A DNA stretch of 64,000 bases. Origin: Patescibacteria group bacterium. Its GTDB lineage: Bacteria > Patescibacteriota > Patescibacteriia > CAIXNZ01. The position numbers were made by a program, and so were the translations under genes. Below, piece after piece: positions 3,813-62,204 of this stretch (position 1 is the first letter of the stretch; each line of letters starts with the position of its first letter). The notes under the pieces were generated by a model. The model worked only from the letters and a program-made list of their open reading frames with translations, did not search any database and had not been told where the DNA came from. The DNA lies in the NCBI GenBank assembly GCA_041651155.1, contig JBAZJU010000008.1:1932-65931 (forward strand). Reading direction: 5' to 3'.

Positions 3813-3957
3813 ACAAATAGTTCCCCTGTTTTAATTCCAGATACCTGTCCATTTTACCTTTCTTACCTGTCATCCGACCTGTCTGCCATAGCTTAAGCGG
3901 AGGCAGAAGCTTTAGCGTAGGATGACCCCTTTTACCCTTCTTTCTCTTTTTACTCTT

Positions 3958-5702: not shown

Positions 5703-5744
5703 GCCTGCCTGCCCTGCCTACCGGCAGGCAGGCGGCAGGCAGGT
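5703..5744. other. GC-rich imperfect palindrome (gcctgcctgccctgcctaccggcaggcaggcggcaggcagg) in an otherwise AT-rich 390-bp intergenic region
   Basis: Read directly from the sequence. GTAG is present in the loop on the minus strand. Confidence 0.5.
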
Positions 5745-22248: not shown

Positions 22249-22356
22249 TTTTATTTTATTTGAAATTTGGATTTTGTTATTTGAAATTTATATTTATATT
22301 ATACCTTAAATATAAAAAAATTCCTAAAATAAAATTCGCAGATTCGCATTATTCGC

Positions 22357-22388
22357 CTGCCCGCCGTAGCTTTAGCGAAGGTGGGCAG
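22357..22388 (-). terminator. hairpin with a GTAGCTTTAGCGAAGG loop directly after the helicase-nuclease stop; probable terminator
   Basis: ctgcccgcc / ggtgggcag stem with a U-rich tract downstream on the minus strand. Flanked by direct repeats of gcagattcgcattat. Confidence 0.45.
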
Positions 22389-22398
22389 ATTCGCATTA

Positions 22399-25300
22399 TC
22401 AAATCCTAAATTCACAAATTTCCCTAAAATCACAAAAGCTGCATTTGTGGTACTCAGGGCTGGCTGAAAACTGGCTAGATTTAATTTCTTCAATTGTGGT
22501 AATAAATTCATTTTCAAGCTTGTCTAATTCTTTGTCCGATCCTAAAAATGACAACTGAGAATTATTATCAATGTAATAAAATGTTAATTTGCCAACCGGA
22601 TTCCCGCCTGTTATTTCTGGTAAATTCAAACAGGCAAATTGATATAAAAGTAATTGCGTTTTTTCATCTAAACTTAATTTATCTTTTGGCGAACCAGTCT
22701 TGTAATCAATTAATTCCACTGTTTTATCAGGCAATAAATCAATGCGATCAATAAATCCCCTAATTGTATAAAATTCATTTTTAGAACGAGACATTTTAAT
22801 GTTAAAACCTTTTTCCAGACTAAGCGTATTTAAAATTTTATCCTTATTTTCTTCATAGAATAATTTTATGAATTCCCTGCCTTTTTTAAGATATTTTTCT
22901 TTATCCTCTTTATTATTAAACCATTCATCAATCCAGGAATCTGCAAAGATTTTTTTAAATTCTTCAAAACTGACCAGGTCGCCTATTTTTTTGCTTTCAC
23001 CTTTGGAGCTAGTTTTAGGGCTAAATAAATCTGTTTGGGCACTTTGAATCTTTGAATTTGCTAAAACATAAAATTTCTGTAAAGCAGTATGCATGCTTTT
23101 GCCATAAGAAAATACGCCCTTGCCCAAAACCGGAATTTTAAATATATGGGCCAGTTTATACTGATAAGGACAGGTGCGAAAGGCCGTAATTTGGGAAAAA
23201 GAAAATTGGGTCGGCAAAGCAAAAACTTCTTTTTGTTTTTTCTTACTGGCAACCTGTATTTCTGCTTTATTGCCAATACTTTTTTCTGTAGCCTTGGAAA
23301 CTTGCTGATCAAGCTTAAACCCTTTATTTGTTTGAGCTAATTCTGCCAAAAACTGAGAAATTTTCTTTTTTCGCGCGCCGCCATAATCATCTGCAGACGT
23401 TAAAAATAAGCCTTTTTTAGCGCGCGTCATTGCCACATAAAACAAACGTCTTTCTTCCTGCAAATGAAAATCTCCTTCTGGCAAAATATCTTTAACTAGT
23501 GGCTCGGGAATTTCAATAGGCTCTCCTCTTTTCACAGTTGGAAATCGCTGTTCAACTAAATTTGGAATAAAAACATATTCAAATTCCAGGCCCTTGGCAG
23601 AATGCACAGTCATAATTTTAATCACATCCGGCCCCATTTCCAGATCAAATTTCAATGGACCGCTTTCGCCTGATTCTAATTCCAGCTCCAGTTCAGCCAT
23701 AAAATTCTGCAACGATGGATCACTGGCGCCTTCTTCAAAAGTTTTTATCCTGTTATAGAATTGGTTTAAATAATCAGCATTTTGCTTGGCCAAAGCTTCG
23801 TCAGCGCCCAAAATCTTGGCCAGATATTTGGAATCCTGCATAAAAGCCAGCATTATCTCGCCGACTGTTTTTTCGCGGGTTAAAGCAGAATGCTTTTGGA
23901 TTAAAGATAAAAAGAAATTAATTTGCGAAACTGTTTCAGCAGAGATGCCGAAAATTGTAGAAGCTAATTTTAAGGCCTCGTATAAAGAAAAATTCTTCTT
24001 ATTGGCAAAATGGCAAAGTTTGGTTAATTCCTCGTCAGAGATATTGACAATCGGCGAGCGCAACAGCCGAAAAACCGCCGGGCTTTCATGATAATTATCT
24101 AAAAGCTTAAAATAATTTAAAATATCCAGAATAATCGGCTTATTATATAAGCCGCGCAAAGCCACAAATTGGTAAGGCAGGTTTGTTTTGCGCAAAAAAT
24201 TAATAAAGGTCGTGGCTGAATCATTGGCGCGAACTAAGATTGCAAAATCCGACCAATTTAATTCTTTATTCTTTTTTCTTAATTCTAAAATTTTATTTAT
24301 CACTCCCCTTACCTCTTCATCAAGAGTTTTAAAATGCAAATGCTCAATTTCAGACACACATTTATTATTGGCCTTTAGTTGTTTTTTAATCTTTGAACCT
24401 TTTTGCGCCTCTAAACGGTTTGGATTATTTAATTGGATAAAATTGTAAGACAAATCCAAAATATCCTGGCAGGAGCGGTAATTTTCAGTTAAAACAATAT
24501 TTTGTGCTTTAAGATAATCTTTTTGAAATTGCAAAATATTGGAGACGGAGGCGCCCCTAAATTTATAAATTGATTGGTCATCATCAGCCACAACTGTTAA
24601 ATTAGCCTTCTCCCCTGCCAAAAGTTTGACCAAATTATACTGGGCAAAATTTGTGTCTTGGAATTCATCAACTAAAATGTATTCAAATTGTTTCTGATAT
24701 TTTTGCAATATATTTTTGCGCTGTTTAAATAATCTTAAAGTGTAATTAATCAGATCTCCAAAATCAAAAGCATTATTATCCAAAAGTAATTGCTGATAAA
24801 CATGATAAGCATTGGCAATTTCTTTTAAACGCCTGACTTCCTCAACTAATCCTTCGTCGCCCTGTTTTGTATCCAAATCCAATTCCCTTTTTTCTGCATA
24901 AGCCAGATAATCTTCTGGATAAATTTCCTCATCTTTACAGCGGGAAAAATGAGTTAATAGCGCATGAATAAATTTTGTGGGATTGCCTAATGGCTTATAA
25001 TAATCCAAATCAAACTTATCCAAATTCTGCCTCACCAAAAGCCAGGCGCTCGTTTGATTTAGCAATTTAAAATCATTGCTTAAGCCAATATCCAGAGCAT
25101 GTTGTTCCAAAATTTTCTGGCAAAAAGAATGAAAAGTGGAAATCCACAAATCAACATAACCATAAGGCAAAAGCTTATCTACTCTTTCCTGCATTTCCCC
25201 AGCTGCTTTGTCAGTAAAAGTTAAAGCCAAAATCGCATCGGTTTTCACATCTTTATCCAAAATCAAATGGCTGATTCTTTGGGTAATGACCATTGTTTTG

Positions 25301-25434
25301 CCAGTGCCTGCGCCTGCCACAATCAAAAGAGGACCATTGCCAAAGGTAATGGCTTTTTTCTGCTGGAGATTAAATTTAGGTTTATTTTCAGACATATTTA
25401 ACTTAATTTTACAGGAAAAACTGAATTTAAACAA
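22399..25434 (-). CDS. UvrD/PcrA-family DNA helicase fused to a C-terminal PD-(D/E)XK nuclease with a Cas4/AddB-like 4-Cys cluster
   Basis: 1011 aa. Helicase motifs: GAGTGKT (Walker A), DEFQDTN, VVADDDQSIYKFRGA. The nuclease segment has GFIDRIDLL...DYKTG and cysteines C...CSFCDFREIC. The start may instead be the Met at 25395 (MSENKPKF...). Confidence 0.8.
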   Translation of the reverse strand: MFKFSFSCKIKLNMSENKPKFNLQQKKAITFGNGPLLIVAGAGTGKTMVITQRISHLILDKDVKTDAILALTFTDKAAGEMQERVDKLLPYGYVDLWISTFHSFCQKILEQHALDIGLSNDFKLLNQTSAWLLVRQNLDKFDLDYYKPLGNPTKFIHALLTHFSRCKDEEIYPEDYLAYAEKRELDLDTKQGDEGLVEEVRRLKEIANAYHVYQQLLLDNNAFDFGDLINYTLRLFKQRKNILQKYQKQFEYILVDEFQDTNFAQYNLVKLLAGEKANLTVVADDDQSIYKFRGASVSNILQFQKDYLKAQNIVLTENYRSCQDILDLSYNFIQLNNPNRLEAQKGSKIKKQLKANNKCVSEIEHLHFKTLDEEVRGVINKILELRKKNKELNWSDFAILVRANDSATTFINFLRKTNLPYQFVALRGLYNKPIILDILNYFKLLDNYHESPAVFRLLRSPIVNISDEELTKLCHFANKKNFSLYEALKLASTIFGISAETVSQINFFLSLIQKHSALTREKTVGEIMLAFMQDSKYLAKILGADEALAKQNADYLNQFYNRIKTFEEGASDPSLQNFMAELELELESGESGPLKFDLEMGPDVIKIMTVHSAKGLEFEYVFIPNLVEQRFPTVKRGEPIEIPEPLVKDILPEGDFHLQEERRLFYVAMTRAKKGLFLTSADDYGGARKKKISQFLAELAQTNKGFKLDQQVSKATEKSIGNKAEIQVASKKKQKEVFALPTQFSFSQITAFRTCPYQYKLAHIFKIPVLGKGVFSYGKSMHTALQKFYVLANSKIQSAQTDLFSPKTSSKGESKKIGDLVSFEEFKKIFADSWIDEWFNNKEDKEKYLKKGREFIKLFYEENKDKILNTLSLEKGFNIKMSRSKNEFYTIRGFIDRIDLLPDKTVELIDYKTGSPKDKLSLDEKTQLLLYQFACLNLPEITGGNPVGKLTFYYIDNNSQLSFLGSDKELDKLENEFITTIEEIKSSQFSASPEYHKCSFCDFREICEFRI

Positions 25435-26903: not shown

Positions 26904-26930
26904 CCTTCGTCCCGCGGAGCGGGACTACGG
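26904..26930. repeat. REP-like GC-rich hairpin element, copy 1 (CCTTCGTCCCGC-gga-GCGGGACTACGG); GTAG head on the minus strand
   Basis: 7-bp stem gtcccgc / gcgggac. 24/27 identical to the reverse complement of 37383-37409. Confidence 0.7.
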
Positions 26931-26950
26931 CGGACCGAGGGGAGGGAAAA

Positions 26951-27145
26951 ATGAGCGACATGTTGCTGGTTGAAGAACATCTTTGCCTAAACTGCAAAGA
27001 AACGTTCAGAATTGTGGTGATTGAAGAATCAGTCAAATTGACCAAAGAAGACAAGCGACTACTTAAAAATGACGGAATCTTTACTATCAAAAAAGGCAAA
27101 AAATTCGAATGCCCGAATTGCCTGCACAAAGTAGAAGTAAAATAA
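26951..27145 (+). CDS. zinc-ribbon mini-protein (CxxC...CxxC), tandem paralog 1
   Basis: 64 aa. Motifs CLNC...CPNC. SD GGGGAGGG. Upstream leader is similar to that of the paralog at 27226. Confidence 0.5.
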   Translation: MSDMLLVEEHLCLNCKETFRIVVIEESVKLTKEDKRLLKNDGIFTIKKGKKFECPNCLHKVEVK

Positions 27146-27225
27146 GTTCGCCGTCGCTTTGGCCTAGGCTTGCCTTGCAAAACAGGTCAAGACGGGTAAA
27201 GCTATAGCGACCGAAGGGAGGGAAA

Positions 27226-27429
27226 ATGACAGAGCCAGATGAAAAATTTACAACCAAAGACATTGATTGTCCGAATTGCCACAAAACAAATCGCCTTGTA
27301 ATCATTGAAAAAGGCCATGCGTTAAGTGAAAAATATCAAATCCTATTGACAAACGCCGGCTGCACAATCACTAATTCTGAATCAGAATTTGTCTGCAACC
27401 ATTGCGACCAGAAAAATGAAATAAAATAA
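27226..27429 (+). CDS. zinc-ribbon mini-protein (CxxC...CxxC), tandem paralog 2
   Basis: 67 aa. Motifs CPNC...CNHC. SD GGGAGGG. Followed by a strong intrinsic terminator. Confidence 0.5.
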   Translation: MTEPDEKFTTKDIDCPNCHKTNRLVIIEKGHALSEKYQILLTNAGCTITNSESEFVCNHCDQKNEIK

Positions 27430-27437
27430 TTTCCAGC

Positions 27438-27473
27438 AAAAAAGCCGTCCCGAAAGCGAGACGGCGTTTTTTA
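27438..27473. terminator. bidirectional intrinsic terminator between convergent genes
   Basis: aaaaaagccgtc-ccgaaagcga-gacggcgtttttt: a GC stem flanked by an A-run and a T-run. Confidence 0.7.
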
Positions 27474-28493
27474 TTGATTAATCCTTTTTTTGATCTCTTT
27501 ATCCAATTTATGCAAATAAACTTTAAATAAACTCTTTTTCATTGGCACGCCAGTAATTTCTAAAAATCCCTGACCAGAAACCTTTTTACCATTACATTCC
27601 CCTTCTATCTTTATAGCGCCTTCCCAATAATTTAAAGGCCCGAAAACCATTTCTTGCTTTTTATTTATTGGCTGAACTTCTAATTTTATATCCCAGTCAG
27701 GCAAATAAATTTCATAGCCAAGTTGGTATGTCGCGCCAGTCTCATGGCTGGTATATTTATTTAGTCTTGGTTTTAAAAACATATTATCAGTTATTTTCTG
27801 GCGGCCATTTTTATCCAGCGAAGTTGCATGATAAATCTTATTCTGATCGCCATAAACAAAACAGATAATATCAACTCCGTTATTTAGCTGCAATGAAAAC
27901 CAGGTCCATTTATCGCTTTTTGTCAGCGGTGTATTGGCCCATTGATGGTCCATCCAGGAAATCCCTGAAACTTCCAGCCATTTTTTATTGACATTAATCA
28001 GGCCTTTTGTTTTTAAACGGCTTAAAGAATAATAATACGTGGACTTTTCCACCAGATCAATAAAGCCCTTATTGTTAACTAAAAGGGGTTTTTTTGTCGC
28101 AGATAAATTCAGATCAATAAAATCATTGACAATTTTATAATTAAAAAGTTTTGTTTCCTCAATTAAGCAGGAATTGTCATATTGCGCCCAAAGCAAGGGC
28201 AAGGTAAAACTTTTTTTATCCACAAATGAAACCGGCATGATTTTGCTCCACTCTTTATGCTTTTTGTTGTCTGTCAGTAGATAATGGCTAAAATACCAGG
28301 CTTTAAAAGGCAATCTTTTGGCATAAGGAATGGCAACCTTTTTCGGCTTGGCCGCAAAAAGAGTGTTCATGTAGGAAAATTCCCTGCCGTCTTTTGTTTT
28401 TAAATGACCGTTAAAATACCACCATTCAATCGTATGATCATGCTTTTGCTCATCACGCGGAAATTTGAGGGGTTTAAATTTTTCTTTGGGCAT
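27471..28493 (-). CDS. AttH/CrtC-like lipocalin-fold protein (COG5621 family)
   Basis: 340 aa. N-terminal signature H..EWWYFNGHL typical of the AttH/hydroxyneurosporene-synthase-like family. Confidence 0.55.
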   Translation of the reverse strand: MPKEKFKPLKFPRDEQKHDHTIEWWYFNGHLKTKDGREFSYMNTLFAAKPKKVAIPYAKRLPFKAWYFSHYLLTDNKKHKEWSKIMPVSFVDKKSFTLPLLWAQYDNSCLIEETKLFNYKIVNDFIDLNLSATKKPLLVNNKGFIDLVEKSTYYYSLSRLKTKGLINVNKKWLEVSGISWMDHQWANTPLTKSDKWTWFSLQLNNGVDIICFVYGDQNKIYHATSLDKNGRQKITDNMFLKPRLNKYTSHETGATYQLGYEIYLPDWDIKLEVQPINKKQEMVFGPLNYWEGAIKIEGECNGKKVSGQGFLEITGVPMKKSLFKVYLHKLDKEIKKRINQ

Positions 28494-28497
28494 AAAT

Positions 28498-29172
28498 TTA
28501 AGTTTCTATATTATCAATTAATTCGGGGGAATTTAAACTCGTGTATTGCCAATTTTTTGGCAGGCCATGCTTCAAATGGTTATAAACCGTGTAATCATAA
28601 TGGTTGTCCCAATCCTTCTGTTTTTTCAAATGGTTATCATGGAAACGGATGTAATGGTCGTAAAATTTTCTCTGCCACTTGAATTTAGGGTACGGCGTTC
28701 CATTTTTAAATTTTTGATTAAATAAATCTTGATACCGCTGAACATCAAATTTCCATACATATAATTCATGGGGATTTAATATGGGTAGTCCAATAATCTT
28801 ACCTTTAAAAACATCCCCCATTCCCCGTAGGCCACACAATATTGTGTGGCCTACGGGGTTATTGGGATAATTATTTGTATAACCCATTATAATATTAATA
28901 TTGCGAGAAACATTTCTTTTCAAAGATTTCATCACGTGCGAAATATCAAATTTATTGTTTGGTTCAATCATCAAATTCACATGATCATAAATAATTGAAA
29001 AGGCATATAATTTAAATCCTTTCAATACTTTACAAATCTTTAAATTCTCAATAAATAAATCACAAAAAATTTGCTCCTTAAAATATGGGTAATTATTTTT
29101 CGTCTTAAACACGACGTAATAAATCGCGCCCGGGAAACAAATTCGCCTTATGGAATTTTTATGCAACATCAT
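28498..29172 (-). CDS. IS200/IS605-family Y1 (HUH) transposase-like protein, RAYT-like, probably catalytically degenerate
   Basis: 224 aa. Aligns to IS200 TnpA blocks: IYYVVFKTKNNYPYF matches YHIVFAPKYRR; YDHVNLMIEPNNKFDISHVMKSLKRNVS matches ADHIHMLLEIPPKMSVSSFMGYLKGKSS. The HUH motif reads HVN and the catalytic Tyr block is disrupted. Contains a 36-bp perfect palindrome. Confidence 0.6.
   Translation of the reverse strand: MMLHKNSIRRICFPGAIYYVVFKTKNNYPYFKEQIFCDLFIENLKICKVLKGFKLYAFSIIYDHVNLMIEPNNKFDISHVMKSLKRNVSRNINIIMGYTNNYPNNPVGHTILCGLRGMGDVFKGKIIGLPILNPHELYVWKFDVQRYQDLFNQKFKNGTPYPKFKWQRKFYDHYIRFHDNHLKKQKDWDNHYDYTVYNHLKHGLPKNWQYTSLNSPELIDNIET
28823..28858. repeat. 36-bp perfect palindrome inside the transposase-like CDS, with a GTAG head (ccccGTAGgccacacaatattgtgtggcCTACgggg)
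   Basis: Read directly from the sequence. In frame (12 codons, PVGHTILCGLRG) and located where the catalytic Tyr block of IS200 TnpA should be. Confidence 0.9.
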
Positions 29173-30343
29173 TTTCTTCCTTTAAAAAATAATTCTTCAA
29201 CTGCGAAATCTGCCAAATCAAAACCGTATTTAAAGTTAAAATTATTACAAATATTAAAATCAAGGAATTGCCGCCTAAAAATATACCGCCCATAATTGCC
29301 ACAATTGAGGCGCCAATAATCGTCACTATATTATCCATGGCCACGCCAACCACAGCATCCCCTATTCTGCCATTGGGATGGACGGAAAAATTATGTACCA
29401 CAATCATTTCACCTAGACAGCCAATAACACCGGCTAAAACACCGGCAATCACATAAGGCAAGTTGGTTATTTCACACAAAGTTTCAATTGAGCGAACCAT
29501 GCTTTCAGCTGCCATCAAGATTGCCAAGCCGCTGATTAATAAATATCCCCAGATAATTAAATTACTCTTGGTTTTAAAATATCCTTCCTCTTCAACAATT
29601 TCTTCAACCGGACTTTTAGCTCTTTTAGTTTTCCTAAAATAATATAAAATAAAAATTCCCAAAAGCAAAATTAAAAAACCAACCGGCCTAATTAACTGGT
29701 AAAGATCAGATTCAATCCCAGCTGGTTTTATTTTTACCTGGCCAAAAATAACCATGCTTAAAGCAACTATTGCGGTTAGAATAGTCAGAGCCATTGAAAT
29801 ATTAATTGCAGTGTCAAATTCTGATAGCAATGGCTTGCGCTGATGATCTTTAATCGGCTTAACAGTTCCGCCAAATTTTAATTTGGGAAACATCAGGACA
29901 CTAACGCCTTTGGCATTTGCTAAATTTTGCCGAAAAATGCACCAGGCAGCATGTCCAATATTATAAACATTTGAGCCAAAAGTTGTGGCCGCGGCAATTA
30001 TGGCATAATTAATAGCTAAAGCAAAATCTGTTTGTCTTAAGCTAACGCTGACAAGAGCGGCCACAATGCCTAAAACCATATCAGGAAAGGCAGTGCCAAA
30101 AGATTGCAATAAGCCTCCGGCCAATTTTGTTCTTTCCGTTAAAACACCCGTTGTTTCTTCAATAATTTTGGCAGTCCCTCTTAAAATAAAGAATGCGCCC
30201 AATCCCAAAATAGCAACAACTGCAAATATTCTGATAAAAATATTATGCGGCTCCCCTAATAAATTCATGAGGTAAAAACGCAAAACAAAAGCGCCTGCCA
30301 ATAAGACCAAAACATAAATTAAGTGATTTTTAAATAATTTCAT
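29159..30343 (-). CDS. Ca2+/cation antiporter (CaCA, YrbG-like) family membrane protein
   Basis: 394 aa, polytopic. Two alpha-repeat-like motifs: GTAFPDMVLGIVAAL and GCLGEMIVV. Confidence 0.6.
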   Translation of the reverse strand: MKLFKNHLIYVLVLLAGAFVLRFYLMNLLGEPHNIFIRIFAVVAILGLGAFFILRGTAKIIEETTGVLTERTKLAGGLLQSFGTAFPDMVLGIVAALVSVSLRQTDFALAINYAIIAAATTFGSNVYNIGHAAWCIFRQNLANAKGVSVLMFPKLKFGGTVKPIKDHQRKPLLSEFDTAINISMALTILTAIVALSMVIFGQVKIKPAGIESDLYQLIRPVGFLILLLGIFILYYFRKTKRAKSPVEEIVEEEGYFKTKSNLIIWGYLLISGLAILMAAESMVRSIETLCEITNLPYVIAGVLAGVIGCLGEMIVVHNFSVHPNGRIGDAVVGVAMDNIVTIIGASIVAIMGGIFLGGNSLILIFVIILTLNTVLIWQISQLKNYFLKEENDVA

Positions 30344-30365: not shown

Positions 30366-31292
30366 TTATGGCTGTAAAATATCTTCTGTCCGGCCATTAA
30401 TCGAAATAATAACTTGTTTAATACTGGTAAATTGTTTTAAAGTTGTCACAATCTGCGAATTAATGGCTGCCACGCGGCATGAACCTCCCACCTGAAATTC
30501 TAATTGCTTGTCAAAATCAACCCTAGCTACACCATCAACGATAGTCAATTTTTGAATTTTAACTCCGCTATTTATTGAAGTATAATAACCATTGGCTTTT
30601 TCCTCTTCAGTCGGACCTTTTAATAATTCCTCCAAAGCTGCCCTGGCAGTTGAAACTGTTTTGGCAATTTTACGATCAACTGGATAGACTAAACGGCAAT
30701 CCATGGCATTTGGATTTTTCTTGGCATTGCCAAAAAAGACTTTAATCACTAATGTGGCGACACCTTTTAATTTTACTGGCAAACGAAATTCCTTTTGCAA
30801 TTCTGGTAAGCCTGACGGATTATCATTCATAAAAACCAAAGTTCCTGCCTGGTCTTTATCAACTAAAAATTCCAAATTTGCTTTAAACGGTACAAAATCA
30901 GTTGTCATCCAATCACTCTGAGCTTGGGCAATGGCCGTGGCTATTTCTTTACCACTTTCGTCAAGCAATTTTACAGGAAAACTTGCTTCAAAATACCAGC
31001 CCGCTGCTTGCCCAGTGAGAATATATGGGCTAGCTATTTCTTCATTTGCCTTTGGGTTATCTACAATAATTTCTTTTACAGCCGGGACTGTATTGGAATT
31101 TTCTACTGGCTGATTAATATTTGCGCCAGGGCAAGGCGTAGTTGGCATTGGCGCGCTAGGCTGGCCATGTTTGGTCCACTCGCCATTTTGACAAATCCAA
31201 TTATCTTCTCCGCTAAAAAAACGGACGCCTAAAATAATTCCGCCTAATACTATAATTAAAACAATGATAATTATTAAAATTTTTTGAGTCAT
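30366..31292 (-). CDS. membrane-anchored GerMN/Gmad2-domain protein
   Basis: 308 aa with an N-terminal TM. C-terminal GerMN-like segment: GYYTSINSGVKIQKLTIVDGVARVDFDKQL...GGSCRVAAINSQIVTTLKQF. Confidence 0.5.
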   Translation of the reverse strand: MTQKILIIIIVLIIVLGGIILGVRFFSGEDNWICQNGEWTKHGQPSAPMPTTPCPGANINQPVENSNTVPAVKEIIVDNPKANEEIASPYILTGQAAGWYFEASFPVKLLDESGKEIATAIAQAQSDWMTTDFVPFKANLEFLVDKDQAGTLVFMNDNPSGLPELQKEFRLPVKLKGVATLVIKVFFGNAKKNPNAMDCRLVYPVDRKIAKTVSTARAALEELLKGPTEEEKANGYYTSINSGVKIQKLTIVDGVARVDFDKQLEFQVGGSCRVAAINSQIVTTLKQFTSIKQVIISINGRTEDILQP

Positions 31293-37382: not shown

Positions 37383-37409
37383 ACCGTAGTCCCGCTGGGC
37401 GGGACGAAG
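37383..37409. repeat. REP-like GC-rich hairpin element, copy 2 (ccGTAGtcccgc-tgg-gcgggacgaagg), in the atpD-atpG spacer
   Basis: Same element in the opposite orientation. The GTAG tetranucleotide lies immediately 5' of the stem. Confidence 0.7.
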
Positions 37410-37431
37410 GTTTGAATTTTAGCATTTGTCA

Positions 37432-44266: not shown

Positions 44267-44513
44267 AAAATTGAGTTATTAAATGATTTTATATTTATAG
44301 TCTGCAGCTCTGCTTTGCAGAACAGAGGACTACTCGTAGTCCGAAGCTTTAGCGAAGGACTACATCCACTCCTTCATGAACCAATAAAGCAAGACCAAAA
44401 CCAAAACAATCAAAAAATAAATATAAAATGGGACGTGCACCATATTTTTTTATTAAAAAATTGCTTTAATAAGCTGTTTTTATTATACCTCAATTCATTT
44501 TTTAAATAAAGTC

Positions 44514-59759: not shown

Positions 59760-62204
59760 TCACAATTCAACTGTCTCCCCTTCATTAACTTTCTTTGCAT
59801 CCCCCAGCAAGTCAACTGACGGCATTTTTTCTTTTTTAGGCAGCTCCTCTTTCTTTACAATTTTAACTTCAGGTTCCTTCTTAACCTCCTTGCTTTTATC
59901 TATAGTGAGTTCTGGCTTAACTACTTTTATTTCCGACTCTTTTACTGGCTCTTTTGGTTTTTCCACTTTATTTTCAAGAGTTGGCTTCTTTTCCATATCC
60001 TCCCTAGCCTTTTTATCCACCATAGCTTTCCTGACTTCCGTAGCTTTTTTATCAGCCATAGCTTTAGCGTCGGCTGAAGCGTAGGAAGTAGCGGAGGTGG
60101 AGGCGAAGGAGGGCTTAATTGCCTCATTTTTAATTTCTGGCATTTTAATTTCTTTTGGTTTTTCTACGGGTTTTATCTCCACCTTAATCTTTGGGGTCTC
60201 AATTTTAGCTTTCTCTGGCTTTTCTAAAATAGGCTTGGCCGGTTCAGCTTTAACTTCTTGGACTTTCAACGCCTTAATCTCTGGCTTGAAAATTTCTTTT
60301 GGCTTGGCCATTGGTTTTATTTCTGCTTTAATTACAGGCTTTGACTCGGCCATGACTCTTGGTTTTTCAACTTTTTTTTCATCTTTCTTAATTTCTGGTT
60401 TATCTGGCTTCTCTGTCGGATTAGCTTTAATTTCCCATGGTTTAACTATTTCCTTTTTCCAAGCCTCGTCTTTTTGTTGCCCTTCTTCCCCTTTTTGCTC
60501 CTTTCTCCCGTTTTGCCCTTCTTTTATCGGCTTACCCCCAAAATCCACTGTTTGTTTTTTTATTTCAACCAAAGAAACGGGCGGCTTTTCAACCTTTTTA
60601 ATATCCTCCGAAGCCTTGGCGAAGGAGGACATTTTAATGTCACCGCGACGCGCTTTTTTCAAACAATCCTTACAATAAACTGGCCTAACATTATCAGGCT
60701 TAAATGGCACCTCAACTTCATTTCCGCAATTATAACAAAGAGCCTGATACTTTGGCCCGGTTGAAGATTTTGACATTTCTTCTTCATTTTTTTTGCCAAT
60801 AGGCCGTTCTTCTCTTCTACCTTCCTGTCTTTTGGCAAAAACATCAACTGTGACGCCTGACTCCCTATCTTTGTCAGTTAATTTTGCCTCGGCTTTGTTA
60901 CCAGAACTCCAGCGCATTATTTTATCTTCTACCACATCACGCGGTTTAGTATAGCGCTCACGCGAGGCACGAATAGCTTTTTCTTCATTACCCAAAGATT
61001 CGCCATAAACCGGGGGCAAGCCTTTGGCTGAAAAAGGCTCTGAGGTTACGCCATCAATCATCAACTTTGTATAAAAATTATATTTCGGCAAATTAACTAA
61101 ATCTTCTGGCAAAATATTTGGCGCAAATTCATTTTCCAAAAATTCAGCATCTTCTGCTCCCACGCGAAAACAAATAATGGTGCCCACATTGCCAAAAACA
61201 GCAGGCTTAACCACTTCACCCAGCTGTTCAATATATTGGTGGGCGATTATCAAGTTTAAACGGTATTTGCGGGCTTCTGATAAAATATTGGCAAAAGAAT
61301 CGGTAGCAAAATTTTGAAATTCATCCACATATAGGTAAAAATCTTTTCTGATATCTTCTTGAATATCAACACGGCTCATGGCTGATAATTGTATTTTAGT
61401 AACCATCATTGCGCCCAATAAAGCTGAAGCATCCTCGCCGATTCTGCCTTTAGATAAATTTAAAATTAAAATTTTCCCCTCATCCATGACCTTGCGCAAG
61501 TCAATTGATGATCTGACCTGTCCAACAATATTTCTGATTAAAGCAGTTGATAAAAACTGGCCGACCTTATTTTGAATAGGCGAAATAACCTCTTGCAAAA
61601 CGCGATCATTCCACTTAGTAAACTCATCCAGCCAAAAGGAGCGCACCACAGGATCCTGGACTTTATCTACTACTTTTTTACGATAAACCTTATCTACTAA
61701 AATGCGGTTAATCCCGAGCAAGGTGCTATCGGGATATTCTAACAAAGCCAAAATAGCATTGCGCAAAATATATTCCAAACGAGGCCCCCAAGAATCAGCC
61801 CACTGTTTTTTAAATACCCCGATCAAGCCTGAAGAAATTAAGTGCCGATATTCTGGCGCGACTTTTTCCAGCACATTGAAAGAAATGGGGAAATTAATAT
61901 CAGACGGATTAAAATAAATCACATCATTAATACGATTGGAAGGAATCCAACCCAGCATTTTTTCTGCGGTATCACCATGAGGATCAACATAACAAACGCC
62001 ATGCCCGGCAATAATATCAGAATAAACCATATTTTCAATCAAAGTGGTTTTGCCCATGCCGGTTTTTCCAATTACATAAACATGGCGCCTGCGGTCATCT
62101 ATTTTAATGCCAAAAACCCTTTCGCGATTTCTAAAAGTGGTCACCGCAAATGGCGTAACTCCGGCTTGCATTGCCTTATGCATTTGTAATCTTTCTTCTG
62201 ACAT
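59760..62204 (-). CDS. AAA_10 (VirB4/TraG-VirD4/HerA-like) P-loop ATPase with a zinc ribbon and a ~300-aa K/E/P-rich repeat tail
   Basis: 814 aa. Walker A YVIGKTGMGKTT, then CYVDPHGD (the AAA_10 D-P-K/H-G-E/D box). Walker B YLYVDEFQNF. HQ motif LIIAHQYIEQL. Zinc ribbon CYNCGNE...CKDC. C-terminal PEIK/KPxE repeats. Confidence 0.6.
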   Translation of the reverse strand: MSEERLQMHKAMQAGVTPFAVTTFRNRERVFGIKIDDRRRHVYVIGKTGMGKTTLIENMVYSDIIAGHGVCYVDPHGDTAEKMLGWIPSNRINDVIYFNPSDINFPISFNVLEKVAPEYRHLISSGLIGVFKKQWADSWGPRLEYILRNAILALLEYPDSTLLGINRILVDKVYRKKVVDKVQDPVVRSFWLDEFTKWNDRVLQEVISPIQNKVGQFLSTALIRNIVGQVRSSIDLRKVMDEGKILILNLSKGRIGEDASALLGAMMVTKIQLSAMSRVDIQEDIRKDFYLYVDEFQNFATDSFANILSEARKYRLNLIIAHQYIEQLGEVVKPAVFGNVGTIICFRVGAEDAEFLENEFAPNILPEDLVNLPKYNFYTKLMIDGVTSEPFSAKGLPPVYGESLGNEEKAIRASRERYTKPRDVVEDKIMRWSSGNKAEAKLTDKDRESGVTVDVFAKRQEGRREERPIGKKNEEEMSKSSTGPKYQALCYNCGNEVEVPFKPDNVRPVYCKDCLKKARRGDIKMSSFAKASEDIKKVEKPPVSLVEIKKQTVDFGGKPIKEGQNGRKEQKGEEGQQKDEAWKKEIVKPWEIKANPTEKPDKPEIKKDEKKVEKPRVMAESKPVIKAEIKPMAKPKEIFKPEIKALKVQEVKAEPAKPILEKPEKAKIETPKIKVEIKPVEKPKEIKMPEIKNEAIKPSFASTSATSYASADAKAMADKKATEVRKAMVDKKAREDMEKKPTLENKVEKPKEPVKESEIKVVKPELTIDKSKEVKKEPEVKIVKKEELPKKEKMPSVDLLGDAKKVNEGETVEL

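What the first reader, a model, noticed from the sequence alone, without database searches (positions are those of the whole stretch)
26904..29172. GTAG-headed REP-like hairpins near a degenerate RAYT-like (IS200-family) gene that itself contains a 36-bp perfect GTAG palindrome
Two copies of a 27-nt GC-rich element (CCTTCGTCCCGC-nnn-GCGGGACTACGG; 24/27 identical) lie in opposite orientation at 26904-26930 and 37383-37409. Read on the appropriate strand, each is a GTAG tetranucleotide followed by a 7-bp-stem hairpin, which is the hallmark layout of REP elements bound by REP-associated tyrosine transposases. 1.6 kb from copy 1 is an IS200/IS605 Y1-transposase homolog (28498..29172). Its HUH motif reads HVN and the expected catalytic Tyr block is replaced by 12 codons encoded by a perfect 36-bp palindrome, ccccGTAGgccacacaatattgtgtggcCTACgggg (28823-28858). 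A REP-like hairpin inserted in-frame into its own cognate transposase gene would be a neat example of RAYT inactivation or domestication. Other GTAG-containing hairpins are at 22352-22388, 44322-44360, 3895-3925 and 5703-5744.
Basis: partly seen in the sequence, partly recalled or inferred. Interest (0 to 1): 0.7.

Follow-up and report, generated by a model that had tools for sequence, protein, structure and literature searches.

The report
REP hairpin inside its own transposase gene
A small bacterial gene for a REP-associated tyrosine transposase carries, in frame, a perfect 36-bp copy of the DNA hairpin that such enzymes recognise; the gene is intact rather than broken, and this arrangement was already described in 2018 for a related subclass of these genes.

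Summary
The sequence features are real. A perfect 36-bp palindrome (28823-28858) lies in frame inside a 224-aa Y1/HUH transposase-like ORF (28498..29172, minus strand), and two 27-nt GTAG hairpins lie at 26904-26930 and 37384-37410.

The gene is not degenerate. The catalytic Tyr block is intact further downstream (Y194-x3-N198), and the core is under strong purifying selection. The palindrome encodes a disordered loop between helix alphaC and strand beta4.

All 77 homologous genes examined have a perfect palindrome at the same place. They come from Patescibacteria/CPR, Cloacimonadota and Marinimicrobia. The unit is 28 nt, G[A/T]AGGCG-N7 plus its mirror image. It shows massive compensatory change, almost no G.T pairs, and two reading frames. 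It is therefore a nucleic-acid feature, not a protein motif.

In 18 of 76 relatives, copies of the same palindrome also flank the gene, as in a REPtron.

In-frame "double-foot" REPs inside tnpAREP genes were described by Quentin et al. 2018 for subclass 2.4, which has the same 28-nt palindromes. I file this as a new member of a known kind, in a new lineage with an HxN variant of the HUH motif.

The 27-nt elements belong to a very widespread class of GTAG hairpins. No link to this gene was shown.

The parts
28498..29172 (-). 224-aa REP-associated tyrosine transposase-like gene (Y1/HUH fold). It overlaps both neighbouring ORFs (27471..28493 and 29159..30343), so there is no room for flanking hairpins.
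   Evidence: Pfam PF01797 at 34.3 bits against a cut-off of 23. NCBIfam REP_Tyr_transpos at 60.8 bits, below the cut-off of 80; relatives score 80-93. The AF2 model's best PDB match is 4er8_A, TnpAREP with a REP hairpin, at E = 1.8e-6. There are 63 homologs in a single-sequence search and 354 with a profile.
28823..28858 (.). 36-bp perfect palindrome, read in frame as N-P-V-G-H-T-I-L-C-G-L-R-G (aa 105-117).
   Evidence: DNA fold of -23 kcal/mol on either strand, z about -8.
28827..28854 (.). 28-nt 'double-foot' REP core, GTAGGCCACACAAT|ATTGTGTGGCCTAC. This 14+14 unit is what the whole family conserves.
   Evidence: Across 75 distinct homolog cores, pairs 1-14 from the centre are Watson-Crick in 69-75 of 75. 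All four pair types occur at pairs 1-7. Complementarity falls off beyond pair 14. The length and layout match the subclass 2.4 double-foot REPs in Table S1 of PMC6006769.
28975..28983 (-). HUH-motif position, reading H64-V65-N66 (CAT GTG AAT).
   Evidence: An HxN clade of 18 genes contrasts with HxH in the rest of the family.
28645..28677 (-). W166-Q167-R-K-F-Y-D172-H173-Y-I-R176 block (strand beta4). It is the equivalent of E. coli TnpAREP W94, Q95, E100, H101 and R104, which contact the GTAG guide.
   Evidence: These residues are invariant or nearly invariant in alignment A1. They align to 4er8 residues 91-104. Their roles in E. coli are as given in PMC6006769.
28591..28593 (-). Codon of Y194, the predicted catalytic tyrosine (Y-x3-N motif, YTVYNHLKHG).
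   Evidence: Nearly invariant in A1. Aligns to the Y of YIYINPVKHG in 4er8. Lies in helix 187-196 of the model.
26904..26930 (-). 27-nt GTAG hairpin, copy 1. On the minus strand it reads CCGTAG-TCCCGC-TCC-GCGGGA-CGAAGG. It is intergenic, 21 nt upstream of a small Zn-ribbon ORF (26951..27145).
37384..37410 (+). 27-nt GTAG hairpin, copy 2. On the plus strand it reads CCGTAG-TCCCGC-TGG-GCGGGA-CGAAGG. It lies between the atpG-like stop (37432) and the atpD-like start (37296). It has an extra outer stem, AAACC/GGTTT.
   Evidence: Fold of -14 kcal/mol, z = -4.5.
22364..22381 (+). Shorter relative of the 27-nt element, CCGTAG-CTTTAG-CGAAGG, inside an outer stem CTGCCCG/TGGGCAG. Similar units lie at 44341-44358, 60608-60625 and 3886-3921.

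Best explanation
ORF 28498..29172(-) encodes a TnpAREP/RAYT-type Y1 (HUH) single-strand DNA enzyme. The 36-bp palindrome inside it is a resident copy of the enzyme's own recognition element. That element is a 28-nt 'double-foot' REP (GTAG-N10 | N10-CTAC) with 4 more paired bases on each side.

Shown:
- The element sits in frame in a structurally disordered loop between helix alphaC and strand beta4, so the protein tolerates whatever peptide it encodes.
- It is present at that site in every family member examined.
- Both arms stay Watson-Crick complementary through many compensatory changes, while the encoded peptide and even the reading frame vary.
- In about a quarter of relatives, copies with the same apex lie within a few hundred bp outside the gene.

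Inferred:
- In single-stranded DNA, for example at a replication fork, either strand folds into the same roughly 16-bp hairpin with a G[T/A]AG foot.
- The encoded enzyme binds this hairpin through the conserved W-Q...D-H..R residues, and cuts and rejoins it with Y194, as E. coli TnpAREP does with its REP.
- Keeping one copy inside the gene links enzyme and substrate physically. They are then inherited, transferred and co-evolve as one 0.7-kb unit, and the in-gene copy can seed or be refreshed by the flanking copies.
- In this window no extragenic copy exists within 64 kb, so here the in-gene copy may be the only one, or one of very few.
For: Identity of the protein:
- Pfam Y1_Tnp and NCBIfam REP_Tyr_transpos.
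- Profile hit to 4er8 covering the WQ and Y motifs.
- AF2 model at pLDDT 78.9, with 4er8 as the top Foldseek match.

The palindrome is a family-wide nucleic-acid feature:
- 73 of 77 genes have a perfect stem of at least 9 bp at the site, and all 77 have a perfect palindrome of at least 14 bp.
- 63 of those 73 have no unpaired centre.
- Shuffled genes give a mean longest stem of 6.8.
- Pairs 1-14 are 92-100 % Watson-Crick, with four pair types at pairs 1-7 and only 7 G.T cells out of about 1050.
- The core starts at codon position 1 in 55 genes and at position 3 in 8.

The loop is permissive:
- pLDDT < 50 for aa 101-131.
- In the insert region pN is 0.33-0.47 against pS 0.42-0.85. In the core pN is 0.10-0.25 against pS 0.72-0.85.

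REPtron-like context in relatives:
- 24 extragenic copies in 18 of 76 loci, mostly 4-340 bp from the gene ends.
- 12 of them share the central 16 nt with the in-gene copy. These include loci L006, L012 and L016 of the HxN clade.

Precedent:
- PMC6006769 describes in-frame REP insertions within subclass 2.4 tnpAREP genes. It lists 28-nt perfectly palindromic double-foot REPs.
Against: - No biochemical evidence exists for this family. The second His of the HUH motif is Asn in the window's clade, so cleavage activity is unproven.
- The window has no extragenic copy of the palindrome within 64 kb, at up to 3 mismatches. 58 of 76 relatives show none within about 3 kb. A 'seed copy' role is therefore not demonstrated.
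- Identical palindromes are found between genomes as often as within genomes at similar gene divergence. There is therefore no clean signature of ongoing exchange between copies.
- Perfect symmetry through the centre is not needed for a hairpin. It hints at a templated or double-stranded-DNA process that I cannot specify.
Confidence: 0.6

Rival explanations
1. The palindrome acts in the mRNA. A very stable hairpin in mid-ORF throttles translation, or offers a double-strand RNase site. This would keep the level of a potentially genotoxic nuclease low (cis autoregulation, with or without binding by the protein).
For: The sense strand folds at about -23 kcal/mol. The site is fixed within the ORF in all 77 genes. 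The element is more conserved than the surrounding coding sequence in several pairs.
Against: - RNA stems normally accumulate G.U pairs. Here only 7 G.T cells occur in about 1050.
- The two central pairs, which must be unpaired in any hairpin, are also complementary in 63 of 73 genes.
- The same palindromes occur outside genes, upstream and downstream, where an mRNA role for this gene is not possible.
Confidence: 0.15
2. The palindrome is a passenger. A REP once inserted, or REPs repeatedly insert, into a loop of the RAYT gene that tolerates any peptide. It has no function for the gene. It persists because the enzyme or hairpin-templated repair keeps re-perfecting or overwriting it (selfish maintenance).
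For: - REPs are known to sit in frame in many unrelated genes (PMC3733652).
- The authors of PMC6006769 suggest the insertion has little impact on the protein.
- Peptide and frame are unconstrained.
- L065 and L066 carry a one-arm mismatch intermediate.
Against: - All 77 genes retain the palindrome at one site, across several phyla.
- The 28-nt unit is kept while neighbouring codons are close to saturation at silent sites.
- No family member with an empty site was found.
Confidence: 0.2
3. A REP hairpin inserted into the catalytic region and inactivated a decaying IS200-family transposase gene.
For: The HUH position reads HVN. The Pfam match stops at aa 93. The NCBIfam score is below cut-off.
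Against: - The Tyr motif, the WQ block and the fold are intact.
- The core has pN far below pS.
- The HxN variant is shared by 18 genes at 41-80 % identity with open frames.
- Three HxN-clade genomes have extragenic copies with lineage-specific apexes.
Confidence: 0.03
4. The conserved peptide (V/E)G(D/E)T...(C/F)RLR is a genuine protein motif, and the palindromic DNA is a by-product of it.
For: G108, R114 and L115 are nearly invariant columns in alignment A1.
Against: - Eight genes read the same DNA core in another frame, as K-A-R-S-R-D-L-A-F.
- The residue pairs covary exactly as complementary codons would.
- The same DNA occurs outside ORFs.
- The segment is predicted to be disordered.
Confidence: 0.02

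Closest known systems
TnpAY1 subclass 2.4 (Bertels RAYT group 4) tnpAREP genes with REPs inserted in frame (Quentin, Siguier, Chandler, Fichant 2018, BMC Genomics 19:475, PMC6006769)
   Same: [quoted passage not shown]
- The REPs are 'double-foot', with the foot and its reverse complement at the two ends. Listed examples are 28-nt perfect palindromes, such as GTAGGGGCGAACGG|CCGTTCGCCCCTAC.
- The WQ motif is present, proteins are about 190-220 aa, and copy number per genome is low.
- REPs also flank the gene.
   Different: - The motifs differ: DH[VIL]N or DHFH here against NH[IFV]H, and Y[TI]xxN[FHPY] against YIxNNP.
- The foot is GAAG in 46 of 63 scored genes and GTAG in 11.
- By my model and the 4er8 alignment the insertion is between alphaC and beta4. 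The paper places it between beta3 and alphaC.
- The hosts are Patescibacteria/CPR, Cloacimonadota and Marinimicrobia, rather than Cyanobacteria and Bacteroidetes.
- Here the in-gene copy is universal (77 of 77) and at one site.
E. coli TnpAREP (RayT/YafM) with its REP (PDB 4ER8)
   Same: The fold is the same (best Foldseek hit, TM 0.69 on the target). The W-Q..(E/D)-H..R guide-binding residues and the Y-x3-N catalytic helix are shared. The substrate is a hairpin with a 5' GTAG foot.
   Different: The E. coli gene has only four residues between alphaC and the WQ strand and contains no REP. Its REPs are imperfect, bulged, single-foot hairpins present in hundreds of copies. Its HuH motif is intact.
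IS200/IS605 TnpA (IS608, ISDra2)
   Same: It is a Y1 HUH enzyme that recognises DNA hairpins in single-stranded DNA (Foldseek hits 2xm3 and 2vjv).
   Different: Its hairpins are subterminal and lie outside the gene at both ends of a mobile IS. Its Y motif is Y-x3-Q. It is multi-copy. Here the ORF overlaps its neighbours, and no end hairpins exist in the window.
In-frame palindromic insertions in unrelated genes (Rickettsia RPEs; intragenic GTAG/CGTC REPs, PMC3733652)
   Same: A short palindromic repeat is tolerated in frame in a protein-coding gene.
   Different: Those insertions are sporadic and at different sites in different genes. Here the host gene is the element's own presumed enzyme, and the site is fixed family-wide.
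Rolling-circle initiators whose nick site lies within their own gene (phiX174 gene A, pT181 repC). This comparison rests on my own knowledge and was not tested here.
   Same: An HUH enzyme gene contains the cis-acting hairpin or site on which its product acts.
   Different: Those are replication origins of autonomous replicons. Nothing here indicates a replicon.

Membership tests
Y1 HUH transposase superfamily (Pfam PF01797) | Sequence match above the curated cut-off | tested here: met
   34.3 bits against a cut-off of 23, over aa 17-93 only.
Y1 HUH transposase superfamily (Pfam PF01797) | Fold of TnpA/TnpAREP | tested here: met
   AF2 model at pLDDT 78.9. The top PDB matches are 4er8, 2xm3, 2vjv and 2a6m, with probability 1.00.
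Y1 HUH transposase superfamily (Pfam PF01797) | H-u-H metal-binding motif | tested here: not met
   The window reads H64-V65-N66. So do 17 relatives, while 45 others read HxH. Whether Asn can substitute was not testable.
Y1 HUH transposase superfamily (Pfam PF01797) | Catalytic tyrosine on the C-terminal helix | tested here: met
   Y194 is nearly invariant. It aligns to the Y of YIYINP in 4er8 and lies in helix 187-196.
TnpAREP / RAYT (class 2 of PMC6006769; NCBIfam NF047646) | Y-x3-N-P signature and WQ motif | tested here: inconclusive
   WQ is present. Y-x3-N is present, but the P is H in the window. 14 relatives have NP.
TnpAREP / RAYT (class 2 of PMC6006769; NCBIfam NF047646) | Score above the NCBIfam equivalog cut-off | tested here: not met
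   The window scores 60.8 bits against a cut-off of 80. The five distant relatives tested score 80-93.
TnpAREP / RAYT (class 2 of PMC6006769; NCBIfam NF047646) | Gene flanked by cognate REPs (REPtron) | tested here: not met
   The window has none. The ORF overlaps both neighbours, and there is no other copy of the half-site in 64 kb. The feature is met in 18 of 76 relatives.
TnpAREP / RAYT (class 2 of PMC6006769; NCBIfam NF047646) | Residues that bind the GTAG guide (E. coli W94, Q95, E100, H101, R104) | tested here: met
   W166, Q167, D172, H173 and R176 have the same spacing and are invariant or nearly so.
TnpAY1 subclass 2.4 | [quoted passage not shown] | tested here: met
   Described.
TnpAY1 subclass 2.4 | Double-foot REP (foot plus its reverse complement), 28-nt palindrome | tested here: met
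   The 14+14 unit compared with Table S1 examples. The foot is GTAG in the window and GAAG in most relatives.
TnpAY1 subclass 2.4 | Motifs NH[IFV]H and YIxNNP | tested here: not met
   The window has DHVN and YTVYNH. The family mostly has DHFH and Y[TI]xxN[FHPY].
TnpAY1 subclass 2.4 | Insertion located between beta3 and alphaC | tested here: inconclusive
   My model and the 4er8 alignment place it after helix 77-96 (alphaC) and before the WQ strand. I could not obtain a bona fide 2.4 sequence to align. The plasmid tblastn gave only other subclasses.
REP (repetitive extragenic palindrome), for the in-gene palindrome | 5' GT[AG]G foot at the base of a stable hairpin | tested here: met
   GTAG at 28827-28830.
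REP (repetitive extragenic palindrome), for the in-gene palindrome | Many dispersed copies in the same genome | tested here: not met
   There is one copy in 64 kb. The rest of the genome was not available.
REP, for the 27-nt elements | GTAG foot, hairpin, intergenic, repeated | tested here: inconclusive
   - Two copies plus shorter variants occur in 64 kb.
- The layout matches Pseudomonas REPs in Table 1 of PMC2817692.
- The core occurs in at least 119 metagenome contigs.
- The copy number in this genome and any link to a RAYT are unknown.

The most novel reading that the evidence does not exclude
The in-gene REP may be an obligatory cis-element rather than a tolerated passenger. On this reading, the enzyme gene and its hairpin substrate form one self-contained unit of about 0.7 kb. 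That unit has been kept together since before the divergence of the CPR and Cloacimonadota members, possibly as the master copy from which REP families are founded after transfer. In the window's clade the enzyme would work with an H-u-N metal site. Perfect symmetry through the centre of the palindrome would then point to a templated (fold-back or cross-strand) copying step in REP propagation that has not been described.
Probability: 0.25. Interest if true: 0.6.

Novelty: new member of a known kind. Interest (0 to 1): 0.35.

Why it matters
How REPs spread, and what RAYTs actually do, are still open questions. A family in which every gene carries its own substrate hairpin at one fixed site gives a compact test system: one small ORF, one 28-nt site, and natural covarying variants. 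It could be used to study enzyme-hairpin specificity, co-evolution and REP founding. The family lives in tiny CPR genomes with few or no other copies. It also warns annotators that a perfect palindrome and a truncated Pfam match inside such a gene do not mean a pseudogene. The basic phenomenon is already published, so the gain is incremental.

Tried and rejected
1. Within-genome homogenisation of palindromes. Three paralog pairs have identical palindromes despite 74-89 % flank identity. Several between-genome pairs show the same, so I make no claim.
2. A mobile IS with end hairpins. Paralogs share only the ORF. The window ORF overlaps its neighbours. Close relatives are syntenic around the gene. 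No relatives occur in viral contigs.
3. A known RNA family for either element. Rfam gave nothing in the window. In ten motif-bearing loci it found only an rRNA and a tRNA.
4. A RAYT gene near the 27-nt motif. There was no tblastn hit in 716 kb.
5. Obtaining a bona fide subclass 2.4 sequence for alignment. The profile search was saturated by the CPR family. The plasmid tblastn found only other subclasses, which lack in-gene palindromes.
6. The 27-nt element as a single conserved family. The flanks fall into several unrelated groups across 33-67 % GC. It is more likely a slice through many REP families that happen to share the stem TCCCGC.
7. A literature search for the 27-nt sequence itself found only chance matches.
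Full report
**Observation**

The window is AT-rich (36 % G+C). Protein hits name Uhrbacteria, Parcubacteria and Patescibacteria as the closest sources.

- The sequence at 28823-28858 is a perfect 36-bp palindrome, CCCCGTAGGCCACACAAT|ATTGTGTGGCCTACGGGG.
- It lies in frame in ORF 28498..29172 on the minus strand (224 aa). That ORF overlaps both neighbouring ORFs on the same strand.
- As single-stranded DNA, either strand folds at about -23 kcal/mol (z about -8).
- The 27-nt element is found twice, at 26904-26930 and 37384-37410, with none expected by chance.
The copies are 25/27 identical, not 24/27.

**The gene is not degenerate**

- In an alignment of 42 homologs, the block W166-Q167..F170.D172-H173.I175-R176 and the block Y194...N198..K201-H202.L204-P205 are nearly invariant.
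- A profile of the family hits E. coli TnpAREP (PDB 4er8) exactly over these blocks. WQPRFWEHAIR aligns to WQksfydhiiR, and YIYINPVKHG aligns to YtvynhlkhG.
- The catalytic tyrosine is therefore present, as Y194. It is not replaced by the palindrome.
- The residues that contact the GTAG guide in E. coli (W94, Q95, E100, H101 and R104, as listed in PMC6006769) have conserved counterparts at the same spacing.
- An AlphaFold2 model (pLDDT 78.9) has 4er8 as its best structural match.
- The model places the palindrome-encoded residues 105-117 in a segment of pLDDT < 50 (aa 101-131). This segment lies between helix 77-96 and the WQ strand.
- Against eight relatives, the core has pN 0.10-0.25 and pS 0.72-0.85. 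The insert region has pN 0.33-0.47 and pS 0.42-0.85.
- The HUH position does read H-V-N. This H-x-N variant is shared by 18 genes that are 41-80 % identical and mostly open, while the rest of the family reads HxH.

**The palindrome is a family-wide nucleic-acid feature**

A scan of GTDB genomes returned 80 loci from Patescibacteria (including Peregrinibacteria, Peribacteria and Gracilibacteria), Cloacimonadota and Marinimicrobia. I examined 77 genes.

- All have a perfect palindrome of at least 14 bp at the same place. 73 have a stem of at least 9 bp and 62 a stem of at least 12 bp.
- 63 of the 73 are symmetric right through the centre.
- Total lengths are mostly 28-36 bp and reach 70 bp. Shuffled genes give a mean longest stem of 6.8.
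- Centred on the axis, pairs 1-14 are Watson-Crick in 69-75 of 75 distinct sequences.
- Pairs 8-14 form a conserved core, G[A/T]AGGCG. Pairs 1-7 use all four Watson-Crick types.
- Only 7 cells are G.T. Complementarity falls beyond pair 14. The unit is therefore 28 nt.
- The core starts at codon position 1 in 55 genes, giving E/V-G-D/E...R-L-R. It starts at position 3 in 8 genes, giving K-A-R-S-R-D-L-A-F.
- The conserved peptide seen in the alignment is thus the shadow of a DNA element.
- L065 and L066 carry a one-arm mismatch, the expected intermediate of a compensatory change.

**The palindromes are REPs**

- In 18 of 76 relatives, 24 further copies lie outside the gene, mostly 4-340 bp from its ends.
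- 12 of these share the central 16 nt with the in-gene copy. This is the REPtron arrangement.
- Three of these genomes (L006, L012, L016) belong to the HxN clade and have lineage-specific apexes. This argues that HxN enzymes still propagate REPs. That is an inference.
- In the window, no second copy of the half-site exists in 64 kb, even with 3 mismatches.

**What is already known**

Quentin, Siguier, Chandler and Fichant (2018, PMC6006769) describe TnpAY1 subclass 2.4.

- Its REPs are 'long double foot'.
- As a unique feature, REP sequences are inserted within the tnpAREP genes without disrupting the frame.
- Their Table S1 lists 28-nt perfectly palindromic double-foot REPs. Examples are GTAGGGGCGAACGG|CCGTTCGCCCCTAC and GTAGAGACGCAATG|CATTGCGTCTCTAC. 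This is the same 14+14 layout as here.

The phenomenon is therefore published. The following differs here:

- The lineage (CPR, Cloacimonadota, Marinimicrobia).
- The motifs: DH[VIL]N or DHFH, and Y[TI]xxN[FHPY], instead of NH[IFV]H and YIxNNP.
- The predominant GAAG foot.
- The universality and fixed site of the in-gene copy.
- The loop, by my alignment: alphaC:beta4 here, against beta3:alphaC in their homology model.

I could not obtain a named 2.4 sequence to settle membership.

**Mechanism**

The most likely reading (confidence about 0.6) is this. The in-gene palindrome is the enzyme's own hairpin substrate, kept in a permissive loop and maintained by selection or templated correction at the DNA level. 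Enzyme and site are then inherited and co-evolve together.

- The near absence of G.T pairs and the symmetry through the centre speak against a purely RNA-level role. So does the presence of the same palindromes outside genes.
- The universal retention with compensatory change speaks against a neutral passenger.
- A selfish, self-renewing passenger cannot be excluded.
- I tested for concerted evolution of copies within genomes and found no clean signal. Identical palindromes occur between genomes as often as within them at 70-80 % flank identity.

**The 27-nt elements**

- Read as CCGTAG-TCCCGC-NNN-GCGGGA-CGAAGG, they have a GTAG foot, a 7-bp stem and a 3' CGAAGG. This is the layout of Pseudomonas REPs listed by Nunvar et al. 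2010 (for example TGTAGGAGCGGCCTTGCGTCGCGAA).
- Copy 2 sits between the ATP synthase gamma and beta genes. Copy 1 sits 21 nt upstream of a small zinc-ribbon ORF.
- Shorter relatives (CCG[T/A]AG-CTTTAG-CG[A/T]AGG and similar) lie at 22364, 44341, 60608 and 3886-3921.
- In all of them the core is embedded in an outer stem of about 5 bp that varies and partly covaries. A conserved 3x3 internal loop (GTA opposite G[A/T/G]A) is also present.
- The flanks fall into several unrelated groups. I read this as many REP families that share one stem, rather than one element.
- No RAYT homolog lies in the 716 kb of these contigs, and Rfam has no family for the motif.
- The elements do not flank the RAYT-like gene in the window, and their stem differs from the in-gene palindrome.
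- They share only the CGTAG foot with it. A functional link is possible but not shown.

**Verdict**

The 'REP inside its own transposase gene' idea is right, while 'degenerate' and 'inactivated' are wrong. The arrangement is a new member, in a new lineage and with some variant features, of a kind described in 2018.

Noticed in passing
It always lies inside a larger hairpin. That hairpin has a variable outer stem of about 5 bp and a conserved 3x3 internal loop, 5'-GTA / 5'-G(A/T/G)A (tandem G.A-type mismatches around a T.A or T.T). There is no Rfam family for it and no RAYT gene nearby.
   Followed up: partly
window 22340-22399: The hairpin element TCGCCTGCCCGCCGTAGCTTTAGCGAAGGTGGGC (34 bp) is bracketed by a perfect 13-bp direct repeat, AGATTCGCATTAT. 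It sits right after the stop of ORF 22399..25434. This looks like a target-site duplication, which Y1 transposition does not make.
   Followed up: no
window 44322-44360: GGACTAC / GTAGTCC / GGACTAC form two mutually exclusive hairpins around a CCGAAG-CTTTAG-CGAAGG unit. GGACTAC is also a 7-bp direct repeat on both sides of that unit.
   Followed up: no
window 26951-27145 and 27226-27429: Two small paralogous four-cysteine zinc-ribbon ORFs (64 and 67 aa) lie in tandem. Each is preceded by a near-identical leader, ACCGA(G/A)GGGAGGGAAAA(A)TG. The first leader can pair with the CTCCTTCG just upstream, which overlaps 27-nt copy 1, so the hairpin region might occlude its ribosome-binding site.
   Followed up: no
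L074 2437-2506; L020 3313-3364; L016 2241-2306: Some relatives have much longer perfect palindromes built around the same 28-nt core. L074 has 70 bp in-gene, L020 has 52 bp in-gene, and L016 has 66 bp just upstream. This suggests outward growth of the symmetry. The L020 reading frame has 6 stops and L007 has 2, so these are probably pseudogenes.
   Followed up: partly
L065 and L066, in-gene palindrome (gene nt 318-347): CGAAGGCGACATTGG|CCAATATCGCCTTCG has a single C.A mismatch. It lies between the perfect variants GACATTGG/CCAATGTC (L036, L063) and GATATTGG/CCAATATC (L070, L075). This is a natural half-step of a compensatory change, kept in two syntenic Cloacimonadota genomes.
   Followed up: partly
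L132, L192 and L185: Instances of the 27-nt-type hairpin directly abut tRNA genes. In L132 and L192 it lies 5' of a tRNA start (GGGTGTAGTATAACGG), with the outer stem formed partly by the acceptor-stem bases. In L185 it lies next to a tRNA 3' end.
   Followed up: no
L129 1539-1560 and 11957-11978: Two copies of the 27-nt-type hairpin, with about 45 nt of nearly identical flanks, lie in inverted orientation 10.4 kb apart. They could be the ends of a larger element or a duplicated gene end.
   Followed up: no
window 60608-60625 and L055 2509-2526: The identical 18-mer CCGAAGCCTTGGCGAAGG occurs inside ORF 59760..62204 of the window (on the opposite strand). It also occurs about 0.5 kb upstream of the RAYT-like gene of an unrelated genome.
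   Followed up: no
window 5703-5744: A GC-rich hairpin is built of CCTGCCTGCC / GGCAGGCAGG repeats. The same CCTGCC-type arms form the outer stem of many metagenome instances of the 27-nt element.
   Followed up: no
window 27471-28493: The ORF immediately downstream of the RAYT-like gene is a two-domain CrtC/lipocalin-like protein (PF07143 plus PF17186). Among the 80 related loci, only one shares any neighbour with the window: L025 shares ORF 30366..31292. The gene's context is therefore not conserved with its closest relatives, which are syntenic with one another.
   Followed up: partly
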